A stretch of 64,000 bases of DNA, taken from the IMG/VR virus record IMGVR_UViG_2718218449_000002; one strand, written 5' to 3'. A program made the position numbers. This DNA is from a virus. Taxonomy: Duplodnaviria; Heunggongvirae; Uroviricota; Caudoviricetes. Shown here in pieces: positions 3,001 to 6,000 of the stretch. Positions within the stretch are counted from its first letter, which is position 1; the number at the start of each line of letters is the position of its first letter.

Positions 3001-6000
3001 AGGAACATTTGATGGGATTGCATTGTTTGCCAGTGTTACCCATTTGCTGACAATTTTGCCAGCTTGCCCATTAATGCTTCTTTCGTTCACCATGATTATT
3101 GCGTGTACATGCGGCTCTGACTGGTGTTGAGCCCACTCCATGACGTAAACCCACTGATTGCCTTGAATGAAAGCGATATTGCATCGCTTGATACCAGAGT
3201 TCAGTCGCTGGAATCGCAGGTTTCAGACCATGAAACGCGCATTAATGCTCTGGAGTATGCCACTACGCGCAAGAAGTCAGAGGTTGTTTACTCTGGCGTA
3301 TCAGTAACCATCCCGACAGCGCCGACCAACCTTGTTAGCCTGCTGAAAACGCTTACGCCGTCATCCGGGACGTTGGCACCATTCTTCGACACCGTTAACA
3401 ACAAGATGGTTGTGTTCAACGAGAACAAAACCTTGTTCTTCAAGCTGTCGATTGTCGGGACGTGGCCCAGCGGAACCGCCAACAGGTCAATGCAGCTAAC
3501 ATTCTCCGGTTCTGTTCCTGACACGCTAGTAAGCAGTCGCAACTCGGCAACAACAACCGACAACATCCTGTTAGCTACGTTCTTCAGCGTGGATAAAGAC
3601 GGCTTTCTTGCCACAAATGGCAGCACGTTAACCATTCAGTCGAATGGCGCGGCGTTTACTGCCACAACCATCAAAATCATTGCGGAGCAGTGATGGAAAT
3701 AAAGCTCATCGATAACCCGGTGAAACTTGCAGAATTCCTTAACAACCCGGTAAACACGGGGAATATCGTAGACAGTGGAGATAAATACTACATCAAGCCT
3801 GATGCGGTATATCTCGGCATCTACGAAGGATTAGTGCTGGCTGGAGTTCATGAAGTGCGTAACTTCTGGCATAGCGTTGTTGAATGCCATGCGGTGTATG
3901 ACCCCGGATTCCGTGGCGAATATGCACTACAAGGGCATCGATTATTCTGCAAATGGCTTCTCGAAAACTCACCATTCCTTAACAGCATCACCATGGTTCC
4001 TGACACCACCAAATACGGACGGGCAATTATCCGTTTGCTTGGCGCTACCCGTGTTGGTCACCTTGATGATGCGTACATGAGTAACGGAAAACCGGTAGGA
4101 ATCACCCTCTATCAATTACCTCGTTCGAAATATGAGGAGCTATTAAATGTTAGTACTTAGCGAAAGCTTCAAGAATAAATTGCTTCCCATGAATGGGTAT
4201 ATGAAAGGCGGCAGCGACTCCGGATCTAAAGCCCAGGCACGCGCAACTGAAAAGGGCATCGAACTGCAGCGTGAAATGTGGCAGACGAACATGCAAAACC
4301 TTGCACCGTTCACGCCACTCGCTCAGCAGTACGTATCACAGTTGCAGAATCTTTCCTCTCTTCAGGGGCAAGGTCAGGCGCTTAACCAGTATTACAACTC
4401 TCAGCAGTATAAAGACCTTGCAGGGCAGGCGCGCTATCAGAGTCTGGCAGCAGCAGAGGCAACGGGTGGATTAGGCTCTACAGCAACAGGAAACCAGTTA
4501 GCAGCAATCGCACCTACACTCGGTCAAAACTGGCTGTCAGGTCAGATGAACAACTACAACAATCTGGCAAATATCGGCCTTGGTGCTCTTACAGGTCAGG
4601 CAAACGCCGGACAGAACTACGCTAACAATGTCAGCCAATTGTATCAACAGCAGGCGGCAGCATCGGCAGCAAATGCGAATAAGCCTTCAGGCCTACAGAG
4701 TTTTGCTACAGGTGCCATTGGTGGGGCCGCATCAGGTGCAATGATTGGTAGTGCAGTTCCTGTTATTGGGACTGGTATTGGTGCTCTTGCTGGCGGTGTT
4801 ATCGGTGGTCTTGGATCATTGTTTTAAGGTGGGAATATGGCTACTTGGCAACAAGGAATCAACTCAGGCGGTTTTCTTGCTGGTATCGGTGGGCAAAACT
4901 CAAATGCGCCAAAGGCAAGTGATGTAAGTGAGGCGTTGGCCTATATTCGCCAGAACAACGAAATGGAGCGTTCAGGTCGCAATAACATCGGCCTTCAGGC
5001 GTTGCAGGGACTTGGTAGTGTCGCTCAAACATCTCAAGCCGCAAAGCAACAGGAAGCGGATGCTGCATTCCAAAAAGAATATGCGGCAGCCATCCAGTCC
5101 GGCGATCGACAGCAGGTTCGAGATCTGATGACCAAATATCCTGGTCAATTAGAGAAGATTCAGTCTGGTATGAAGTGGGCAGACGAAGACCAGCGCAATT
5201 CTATCGGCACCTTAGCGGCTGGCGCACGCCTTGCGGCCTCGTCTCCAGAAGCAATGCAATCATGGCTGCAAAACAACGCCAAGGAACTGGCGCGCGTCGG
5301 TGTTGACCCTAACAACGTTGCTCAGATGTATCAGCAGAATCCTTCAGGGTTTGGTGAGTTTGTTTATCACCTTGGGATGGCTGCTCTCGGTCCGATTGAC
5401 TACTTCAATGTTCAGGACAAGATGGCTGGTCGTGAGATTGACCGAGGCAGGCTGGCAGAGATAATCCGCAGCAATCAGGCCGGAGATTTTGAGTTTAAGT
5501 CAAAGCCGTCATATTTAGTTCTATCATTTGCTGAAATATCATCTGTAGTCTTTATCCTAATGTCTGTCTATATGGTGGCAAAAAGTCAAAATAGCAATGG
5601 ATTACAGTATGATGCGCTTTTTATACCATCAATGGCCTTTTCAATATTAGTGTTTTCGTTTAATGGTGGTATTATTTCAAAAATAATATCAAATAAAGTT
5701 ATGATACTTTTAGGTGATGCTTCTTTTTCATTTTACTTGGTCCATACTATAGTAATCAGTACATTGAGCAAGTTCTTTAATGTTTCTGGTCTTGGTGCTA
5801 TAAGTGTAATTAAATTTATAGTAATGGCTCTGTTTGCTTCATTATTTATATCAATAATGATGTATTTGTTTTTTGAAAAGCCAATAAACAATAAGCTAAG
5901 AAAATGGTGGAGTGGATTTAAGAATGATGTTTCAACCACTCGAGTTGAAAAAATAGAAGGCAATCAATTATAGCAATTAAAGTATGATAAGCATTTATGA

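What the first reader, a model, noticed from the sequence alone, without database searches (positions are those of the whole stretch)
4837..5973. In-frame fusion of an ejection-like gene to the 3' end of an O-acetyltransferase gene
The first about 220 codons are Gln/Ala-rich and soluble; from about 5500 the reading frame continues without a stop into an AT-rich hydrophobic segment carrying motifs typical of acyltransferase-3 (Oac-type) C-termini. This looks like a deletion junction that removed the 5' half of a serotype-converting oac gene. The chimera could be a pseudogene or a membrane-anchored ejection protein.
Basis: partly seen in the sequence, partly recalled or inferred. Interest (0 to 1): 0.45.

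Follow-up and report, generated by a model that had tools for sequence, protein, structure and literature searches.

The report
Deletion-made fusion gene in defective prophage
This ORF is a leftover fusion in the defective prophage Sp16 of E. coli O157:H7, made when a 6-8 kb deletion joined the front half of a phage DNA-ejection gene in frame to the back 43% of an acyltransferase gene; it is almost certainly non-functional and therefore ordinary, although databases name it as an intact gene.

Summary
ORF 4837-5973 (+, 378 aa) is a chimera. Residues 1-216 are the N-terminal half of a P22 gp20-type ejection protein. Residues 218-378 are the C-terminal 161 residues of an acyltransferase-3 (AT3) membrane protein. 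The DNA junction is at 5486|5487, where GC falls from 0.52 to 0.29.

Window 1-7542 is prophage Sp16 at argW of E. coli O157:H7, and the ORF is Sakai ECs_3232.

I found the undeleted parent arrangement in other E. coli. P22-like prophages at the same argW site carry gp7, a full gp20, gp16, an 846-aa tailspike, an intact 375-aa AT3 gene on the same strand, and int. Residues 215-375 of that AT3 match the chimera's C-terminal part, with 3 differences in 487 nt.

Both breakpoints lie after codon position 2 and share one base. This is an illegitimate deletion of about 6.4-8.1 kb that happened to stay in frame.

The fusion lacks the essential AT3 motifs (R-X10-H, RXXR) and the gp20 C-terminal region. 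Sp16 has no gp16, tailspike or head genes. Among the 150 best AT3 C-terminus relatives, from 1.84 billion representative proteins, only the chimera itself has a gp20-like N-terminus.

The most likely status is a relic pseudogene. Interest is low.

The parts
3165..3693 (+). 3' part of a Sf6-type tail-needle (knob) gene, truncated at its 5' end. This is the left edge of the surviving P22-like late-gene block.
   Evidence: Pfam Phage_tail_NK 1.7e-117. Similarity to intact prophage L003 starts at 3165, which is 320 nt into its 849-nt gene. RefSeq marks it as a pseudogene missing its N-terminus.
3690..4160 (+). P22 gp14-like gene (DUF2824), intact ORF
   Evidence: Pfam DUF2824 8.4e-65
4147..4827 (+). 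P22 gp7-like ejection protein gene, intact ORF
   Evidence: Pfam P22_gp7 5.7e-90
4837..5973 (+). The fusion ORF (378 aa). It is Sakai ECs_3232 and RefSeq WP_001693763.
4837..5486 (+). 5' half of a gp20-type ejection protein gene (codons 1-216 plus the first two bases of codon 217). Intact homologues are 431-464 aa.
   Evidence: Pfam Inj_translocase 7e-64. It is 95-97% identical in DNA to intact 433-aa genes in L003 and L004 up to base 5486 and unrelated after that.
5486..5487 (+). Deletion junction. The chimera reads ...CCGGAGA|TTTTGAG... One base (A5486) is shared by both parents. The hybrid codon is GA|T = Asp217.
   Evidence: Three-way comparison with intact gp20 (...CCGGAGA|AGCAC) and intact AT3 (...AAACTATA|TTTTGAG)
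5487..5973 (+). 3' 43% of an AT3 acyltransferase gene (parent residues 215-375, about TMH7-10), read in its native frame to its native stop
   Evidence: 3 differences in 487 nt from the intact 375-aa gene of L010. PF01757 profile 214-325 of 326. phrog_3333 O-acetyltransferase 224-368 of 372. Four hydrophobic segments.
6092..6122 (+). Terminator-like hairpin (12 bp stem) followed by TTTTTT, between the acyltransferase remnant and the convergent int gene. The same hairpin follows the intact gene in L010.
   Evidence: consensus scan only
6148..7305 (-). Sp16 integrase (IntS type, 385 aa as annotated). The longest ORF extends to 7341.
   Evidence: Pfam Phage_integrase and arm-binding domains. 97% identical in DNA to Sf6 int. 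RefSeq intS.
7467..7541 (-). argW tRNA-Arg(CCT), the attachment site of Sp16
   Evidence: ARAGORN. Sakai annotation.

Best explanation
The ORF is a relic of prophage decay. An ancestor of the E. coli O157:H7 lineage carried a P22-like (Sf6/HK620-type) prophage at argW. Its gene order was needle, gp14, gp7, gp20, gp16, tailspike, AT3 acyltransferase, int.

One illegitimate deletion with 1 nt of microhomology removed the 3' half of gp20, gp16, the tailspike with its neighbours, and the first 214 codons of the acyltransferase gene. It is 8,135 nt measured against L015 and 6,411 nt against L017. Both breaks fall after the second base of a codon, and the two genes are on the same strand. Translation that starts at the gp20 start codon therefore runs into the acyltransferase frame and ends at its native stop. 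These steps are shown by sequence comparison.

The following is inferred. The product, if made at all, does neither parental job. It has no R-X10-H or RXXR motif and only 4 of the 10 AT3 helices, so it cannot transfer acetyl groups. It lacks the gp20 C-terminal region needed for a working ejection conduit, and Sp16 cannot build virions. The ORF stays open only because the lineage is young and nearly clonal. The neighbouring, equally useless gp14 and gp7 ORFs are also intact.
For: Identity of the region:
- Window 1-7542 is 99.987% identical to Sakai Sp16 plus argW. Sakai annotates this as 'prophage Sp16; P22-like phage', with ECs_3232 as a 378-aa 'phage DNA injection protein'.

The two breakpoints:
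- Similarity to intact gp20 genes stops at 5486.
- Similarity to loci carrying the intact AT3 gene starts at 5486.
- The junction sequences show both parents and one shared base.

The parent arrangement:
- It is found six or more times at argW, with full gp20 (431-464 aa), gp16, an 846-847-aa tailspike, a 375-aa AT3 and int.
- The parent AT3 scores 101.7 bits on PF01757 over profile 3-325.
- It has R13-X10-H24, R83-x-x-R86, FFILSG and WSISVE. All lie in residues 1-214 and are absent from the chimera.
- R-X10-H and RXXR are essential in tested AT3 proteins (PMC9833829).

Loss of gp20 function:
- Loss of only the last 33 or 66 residues of P22 gp20 gives non-functional virions (PMC10461980).
- gp20 residues beyond about 186-255 form the periplasmic barrel and plinth (bioRxiv 10.64898/2026.09.03.749273).

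State of Sp16:
- In Sakai it showed no excision, replication or packaging and is listed as highly disrupted (PMC2669165).

Uniqueness of the architecture:
- It occurs in one clonal allele: 309 of 5,426 complete genomes, all >=99% identical.
- It is the only such case among the 150 best representatives.
Against: - The ORF is open and keeps a good ribosome-binding site.
- It is present without internal stops in every copy I read: L001 and L005-L009.
- RefSeq annotates it as a normal CDS.
- I have no expression data, so I cannot show that it is silent.
- The breakpoint leaves almost the whole Pfam Inj_translocase domain, joined at a loop just before a transmembrane helix, so a stable membrane protein is conceivable.
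- The late-gene block is only 92.7% identical to the best parent-like locus, L015. The actual parent has not been sampled, and a larger deletion across two tandem prophages cannot be excluded.
Confidence: 0.88

Rival explanations
1. The fusion is expressed and has gained a new role as an inner-membrane-anchored fragment of gp20. It would interfere with the ejection conduit of incoming P22-like phages, acting as a superinfection-exclusion decoy in the manner of SieA.
For: - The ORF is open with its native ribosome-binding site.
- Almost the complete Inj_translocase domain is followed by four hydrophobic helices.
- P22 SieA shows that an inner-membrane protein can block injection by acting on gp20/gp16 (PMC10461980).
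- The gp20 N-terminus makes the contacts with gp7.
Against: - There is no signal peptide, and the fusion point is a Lys-rich loop (FEFKSKPS) just after the parent's sixth helix. In the 10-helix AT3 topology, with both ends in the cytoplasm (PMC9833829), this loop is cytoplasmic. The gp20 part would therefore sit in the cytoplasm, whereas its partners assemble at the outer membrane and in the periplasm.
- SieA-escape mutations map to the gp20/gp16 C-terminal regions, which are absent here.
- There is no PADLOC hit.
- The late-operon promoter/activator region and the region upstream of the AT3 gene in the parent are gone.
- Conservation is explained by clonality: 1 difference in 7.5 kb, and that one is non-synonymous.
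Confidence: 0.04
2. The domain order gp20-N plus AT3-C is a native architecture of a family of phage proteins, not a deletion product.
For: PHROGs holds a family of its own for the full 378-aa sequence (phrog_28221). Databases list it as an ordinary protein.
Against: - Only the chimera's own cluster among the 150 best relatives of the C-terminal part has a gp20-like N-terminus. The other representatives have a median length of 356 aa. The three I inspected (P0003, P0004, P0008) are intact AT3 proteins that align to the fragment at about residues 220-360.
- All copies in complete E. coli genomes are >=99% identical.
- Both parent genes exist intact, with the breakpoints mapped to the base.
- The composition jumps from 0.52 to 0.29 GC at the junction.
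Confidence: 0.01
3. The junction arose by a larger deletion or recombination between two different prophages integrated in tandem at argW, not by a deletion within a single prophage. The product is the same but the history differs.
For: - argW does take tandem prophages. In this window a Stx2a prophage lies next to Sp16.
- The left block (3165-5486) and the right block (5487-7545) differ in their identity to the best parent-like locus, 92.7% against 96.8%.
- Sp16 has a second breakpoint at 3164|3165, with unrelated DNA to its left.
Against: P22-like prophages are mosaic, so unequal identity is expected within one prophage. L015-L020 share the tailspike-AT3-int module on different late-gene backgrounds. 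A single 6-8 kb deletion is the simpler account.
Confidence: 0.07

Closest known systems
Prophage Sp16 of E. coli O157:H7 Sakai (gene ECs_3232, 'phage DNA injection protein')
   Same: It is the same locus: 99.987% identity over 7,542 nt, the same 378-aa ORF with one substitution (T209I), and the same argW site. Sp16 is described as a highly disrupted, immobile prophage (PMC2669165).
   Different: Nothing structural differs. In the papers I could search, and in the annotations, the ORF is not described as a fusion. It is named either as an ejection protein or as an acyltransferase.
Intact P22-like prophages at argW carrying the 846-aa tailspike and 375-aa AT3 module (L010, L015-L020; E. coli draft genomes and IMG/VR)
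   Same: They have the same integration site, the same int and the same intergenic terminator-like hairpin. Their AT3 3' part is 99.4% identical, and the late genes are in the same order and orientation.
   Different: They keep full-length gp20, gp16, tailspike and the first 214 codons of the AT3 gene. The window lacks these 6.4-8.1 kb.
Oac of Shigella phage Sf6 (serotype-converting O-antigen acetyltransferase)
   Same: It belongs to the same protein family (AT3). It occupies the same slot between tailspike and int in a P22-like phage that uses argW with a 97%-identical integrase.
   Different: Sf6 oac is on the opposite strand, with its own promoter next to int. It is not a close relative: megablast of window 3000-7500 matched Sf6 only at int. 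Blastn found no similarity between 5487-6154 and the Sf6 region. The best phage relative of the parent AT3 is the TL-2011b O-acetyltransferase at 42%. The substrate of the parent enzyme is unknown.
P22 gp20 / Sf6 gp12 ejection (E) protein
   Same: The N-terminal 216 residues match the family profile end to end. By analogy with P22 they correspond to the extracellular segment, the outer-membrane helix, PP1 and the start of PP2.
   Different: The rest of PP2 and the C-terminal plinth are missing, and a membrane-protein fragment takes their place. The partner gp16 is absent.

Membership tests
P22 gp20-type ejection protein (Pfam PF16928 Inj_translocase) | N-terminal Inj_translocase domain above the Pfam gathering score | tested here: met
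   215.9 bits against a cut-off of 29.7; residues 12-217, profile 1-207 of 218
P22 gp20-type ejection protein (Pfam PF16928 Inj_translocase) | Full-length protein (431-471 aa) with the C-terminal region that forms the periplasmic barrel and plinth and is essential in P22 | tested here: not met
   Similarity to intact 433-aa genes stops at codon 217. Essentiality is taken from PMC10461980 and the domain map.
P22 gp20-type ejection protein (Pfam PF16928 Inj_translocase) | Encoded with partners gp7 and gp16 in a virion-forming phage | tested here: not met
   gp7 is present (4147-4827). gp16, the tailspike, and the head and packaging genes are absent from Sp16.
Acyltransferase-3 (AT3, Pfam PF01757) O-acetyltransferase | Match to PF01757 above the gathering score over the whole domain | tested here: not met
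   26 bits against a cut-off of 31; only profile 214-325 of 326. The intact parent scores 101.7 bits over 3-325.
Acyltransferase-3 (AT3, Pfam PF01757) O-acetyltransferase | Ten transmembrane helices | tested here: not met
   Four hydrophobic segments, corresponding to helices 7-10 of the parent. This rests on hydropathy only.
Acyltransferase-3 (AT3, Pfam PF01757) O-acetyltransferase | R-X10-H motif in helix 1 and RXXR motif at helix 3, essential in tested members (PMC9833829) | tested here: not met
   The parent has R13-X10-H24 and R83-V-F-R86. The AT3-derived part of the chimera has neither. The only RxxR in the chimera, R45-S-G-R48, lies in the gp20 half.
Acyltransferase-3 (AT3, Pfam PF01757) O-acetyltransferase | Conserved C-terminal motifs (G-D/E-A-S-F-x-x-Y-x-x-H; F-E-x-P with the conserved Glu) | tested here: met
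   GDASFSFYLVH at 293 and FEKP at 346
Acyltransferase-3 (AT3, Pfam PF01757) O-acetyltransferase | O-acetylation of a surface polysaccharide (enzyme activity) | not testable with these tools
   This needs LPS chemistry. From my own knowledge, not checked here, the O157 O-antigen is not reported to be O-acetylated.
Sf6 Oac orthologue | Close sequence similarity and the same orientation as Sf6 oac | tested here: not met
   Sf6 oac is on the int strand. There is no DNA similarity of 5487-6154 to Sf6. The best phage relative is TL-2011b at 38-42%.
Sakai prophage Sp16 | Same sequence at the same chromosomal site (argW) | tested here: met
   1 mismatch in 7,542 nt; annotated Sp16 feature

The most novel reading that the evidence does not exclude
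The in-frame fusion is translated and inserted into the inner membrane. The tethered gp20 N-terminal domain would then act as a dominant-negative decoy against the ejection conduit of incoming P22-like phages. That would be an exclusion function created by accident from prophage debris and kept in the O157:H7 lineage.
Probability: 0.04. Interest if true: 0.6.

Novelty: new member of a known kind. Interest (0 to 1): 0.12.

Why it matters
Scientifically it matters little. It is a clean, base-resolved example of how an illegitimate deletion in a decaying prophage makes an open chimeric ORF, and the undeleted parent is available for comparison.

The practical value is for annotation. ECs_3232 and its >=99%-identical copies occur in 309 complete genomes, and the Sakai allele alone occurs on at least 1,000 contigs. 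They are named 'phage DNA ejection/injection protein' in some sources and 'acyltransferase' in others, and the sequence seeds its own PHROG family. It should be flagged as a fusion pseudogene, so that it is not counted as evidence of an ejection protein or of an O-antigen-modifying enzyme in O157:H7.

The comparison also shows that the ancestor of Sp16 carried a tailspike-plus-acyltransferase module of unknown O-antigen specificity.

Tried and rejected
Searches that gave little or nothing:
- The word-indexed protein search with the C-terminal 161 aa returned only a 101-aa partial copy. It missed both the chimera and the intact parent, so its silence was not informative.
- The GTDB species-representative genome scan found nothing.
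- PDB sequence search gave no hit.
- PADLOC gave no hit for the fusion or for the two unknown ORFs to its left.
- Literature searches for ECs3232 or Z-numbers, and for Sp16 with acetyltransferase or ejection protein, found no description of the fusion.
- An attempt to date the deletion through O55:H7 literature failed. I did not establish whether O55:H7 genomes carry it.
- The receptor-binding part of the parent tailspike has only one phage relative, Hafnia phage TS33 at 57.6%. It is absent from complete E. coli genomes. The O-antigen targeted by the parent phage and its acyltransferase therefore remains unknown.
- Promoter-like hits are no more frequent than in shuffled sequence, so they say nothing about expression.

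Ideas rejected:
- Assembly artefact. The junction is present in 309 independent complete genomes.
- Native architecture.
- Sf6 oac remnant.
- dN/dS on the AT3 fragment. With 2 non-synonymous and 1 synonymous difference from the parent there is too little change to interpret.

Full report
**1. The observation**

ORF 4837-5973 (+, ATG, 378 aa) exists as described. It has a Shine-Dalgarno-like AAGGTGG just upstream.

Its first 217 residues are rich in Ala, Gln and Gly (14.3, 11.1 and 10.6%) and contain no hydrophobic segment. Residues 218-378 are 45% I/L/V/F/M and have four hydrophobic stretches. GC falls from 0.520 (4837-5486) to 0.294 (5487-5973).

- Pfam places P22 gp20 (Inj_translocase, E 7e-64, profile 1-207 of 218) on residues 12-217.
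- Pfam places the last third of Acyl_transf_3 (profile 214-325 of 326) on residues 229-343. The score is 26 bits, below the cut-off of 31.
- PHROGs gives the same picture. Residues 1-217 match positions 1-217 of 'released from the phage upon host infection' families. Residues 219-364 match positions 224-368 of 372 of an O-acetyltransferase family.

**2. Where the window comes from**

Window 1-7542 differs at one base from prophage Sp16 plus argW of E. coli O157:H7 Sakai. Sakai annotates this stretch as 'prophage Sp16; P22-like phage', and the ORF is ECs_3232, 'phage DNA injection protein'. The exact sequence is that of strain 272.

Sp16 is an 8.2-8.6 kb remnant at argW that is conserved among O157:H7 strains (PMC8190617; PMC5359411). 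In Sakai it is classed as highly disrupted and shows no excision, replication or packaging (PMC2669165). From about 7546 onward the window is the Stx2a prophage VT2phi_272.

**3. The junction**

Intact relatives of the 5' part are 433-aa genes. They are 95-97% identical in DNA up to base 5486 and unrelated afterwards.

The AT-rich part 5487-6147 occurs in 309 of 5,426 complete E. coli genomes. It is always >=99% identical and always inside this ORF, and no complete genome holds an intact copy.

An IMG/VR scan then returned L010. Its similarity to the window begins exactly at 5486 and runs through int. L010 carries an intact AT3 gene. I take the ATG at 7359 as its start, which gives 375 aa. It scores 101.7 bits on PF01757 over profile 3-325.

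The three sequences at the junction are:
- gp20: ...CCGGAGA|AGCAC
- AT3: ...AAACTATA|TTTTGAG
- chimera: ...CCGGAGA|TTTTGAG

One base of microhomology is shared. Both breaks lie after codon position 2, which gives the hybrid codon GA|T (Asp217) and keeps the native AT3 frame.

The AT3 part differs from L010 at 3 of 487 positions. The int region differs at 50 of about 1,160.

**4. The parent arrangement**

The exact 375-aa protein is recorded in E. coli assemblies: a 90% cluster of 34 members, each seen on 1-32 contigs.

Six loci (L015-L020) show it in P22-like prophages at argW next to yfdC-mlaA-yfdF-fadL, which is the Sp16 site. The gene order is needle knob, DUF2824, gp7, gp20 (431-464 aa), gp16, optional small genes, tailspike (846-847 aa), AT3 on the same strand, and int on the opposite strand.

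Against L015 the window lacks 8,135 nt. Against L017 it lacks 6,411 nt.

The surviving late block is 3165-5486. Its left edge is a second breakpoint inside the needle gene.

**5. What the fusion has lost**

The parent AT3 has R13-X10-H24, R83-x-x-R86, FFILSG and WSISVE in residues 1-214. The chimera keeps only GDASFSFYLVH and FEKP.

R-X10-H and RXXR are essential in the AT3 proteins that have been tested, and the fold has ten helices (PMC9833829). The fragment has four.

In P22, gp20 residues beyond about 186 form the periplasmic barrel and the plinth that meets gp16. Loss of only the last 33 or 66 residues abolishes function (PMC10461980). The chimera keeps 216 of about 433 residues, and Sp16 has no gp16, tailspike or head genes.

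I therefore infer that the product has neither parental activity.

**6. Is it a native architecture?**

No. An exhaustive HMMER search of 1.84 billion representative proteins with the C-terminal 161 aa returned the chimera's own cluster, and then AT3 relatives at 53% identity and below. The other representatives have a median length of 356 aa. The three I inspected (P0003, P0004, P0008) are intact AT3 proteins that align to the fragment at about residues 220-360.

Among the 150 representatives listed, only the chimera matches the gp20 N-terminus.

**7. Comparison with known systems**

The slot between tailspike and int is the one used by oac in Sf6, whose integrase is 97% identical here.

Sf6 oac, however, lies on the opposite strand and shows no DNA similarity to this gene. 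The nearest phage relative of the parent is the O-acetyltransferase of TL-2011b (42%), which also directly follows a tailspike-like gene.

That the parent enzyme modifies O-antigen is an inference from family and position.

**8. Could it do something new?**

A membrane-tethered gp20 N-domain acting as an exclusion decoy is imaginable, because SieA shows that inner-membrane proteins can block P22-type injection.

Several points argue against it:
- The fusion point is a Lys-rich loop after the sixth helix, which is cytoplasmic in the AT3 topology. The gp20 part would therefore sit in the cytoplasm, away from the outer-membrane and periplasmic site where gp7 and gp20 assemble.
- There is no defence-family hit.
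- The only substitution relative to Sakai in 7.5 kb is non-synonymous and lies inside this ORF.
- The open frame is explained by the youth and clonality of the lineage. The neighbouring gp14 and gp7 ORFs are intact too.

I give this reading about 4%.

**9. Verdict**

The feature is an ordinary product of prophage decay in a well-known element. Its main consequence is inconsistent annotation: 'phage DNA ejection protein' in some sources, 'acyltransferase' in others, and its own PHROG family.

Interest is 0.12.

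Noticed in passing
window 6148-7545 and 7546-8906: Bases 1-1353 of the deposited phage record VT2phi_272 (HQ424691 / NC_028656) equal window 6148-7500 at 100%. The 'Stx2 phage genome' therefore begins with the integrase of the neighbouring defective prophage Sp16 and with argW. The Stx2a prophage has its own integrase at 7662-8906 (+). Similarity to loci that have only a P22-like prophage at argW ends at 7545, 4 nt beyond the 5' end of the tRNA. The Stx2a prophage therefore sits between argW and yfdC, on the 5' side of the tRNA gene.
   Followed up: partly
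window 3164|3165: This is a second breakpoint of Sp16, inside the tail-needle gene. Only the last 529 nt of an 849-nt gene remain. The DNA to the left is unrelated to P22-like phages.
   Followed up: partly
window 364-1776 (+) and 2446-3141 (-): Two ORFs of unknown function lie in the left part of Sp16. One is a 470-aa protein in low-GC DNA (0.28-0.40; phrog_13435). The other is a 215-231-aa protein that Sakai calls 'phage replication protein' (phrog_30534). Neither has a Pfam or PADLOC hit.
   Followed up: partly
window 5462: The only difference between window 1-7542 and Sakai is C to T at 5462. It changes Thr209 to Ile in the fusion ORF. Intact gp20 genes have Thr (ACA) here.
   Followed up: yes
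L015-L020 (about 7350-11130 in each) and L010:4709-8486: A module of an 846-847-aa tailspike plus the 375-aa AT3 gene is shared by P22-like prophages whose ejection-protein and neighbouring genes differ. The receptor-binding part of this tailspike is absent from 5,426 complete E. coli genomes. Its only phage relative is Hafnia phage TS33, at 57.6%.
   Followed up: partly
window 33327-33578: A cluster of three tRNA genes (Met-CAT, Arg-TCG, Arg-TCT) lies inside the Stx2a prophage.
   Followed up: no
L012:2684-3775: The nearest intact relative outside E. coli (P0003, 363 aa, 53% identical to the fragment) lies in a metagenome contig. It follows an 860-aa gene that runs off the contig end and precedes a Peptidase_S24-like gene. 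This may be another tailspike-plus-acyltransferase pair in a prophage.
   Followed up: no
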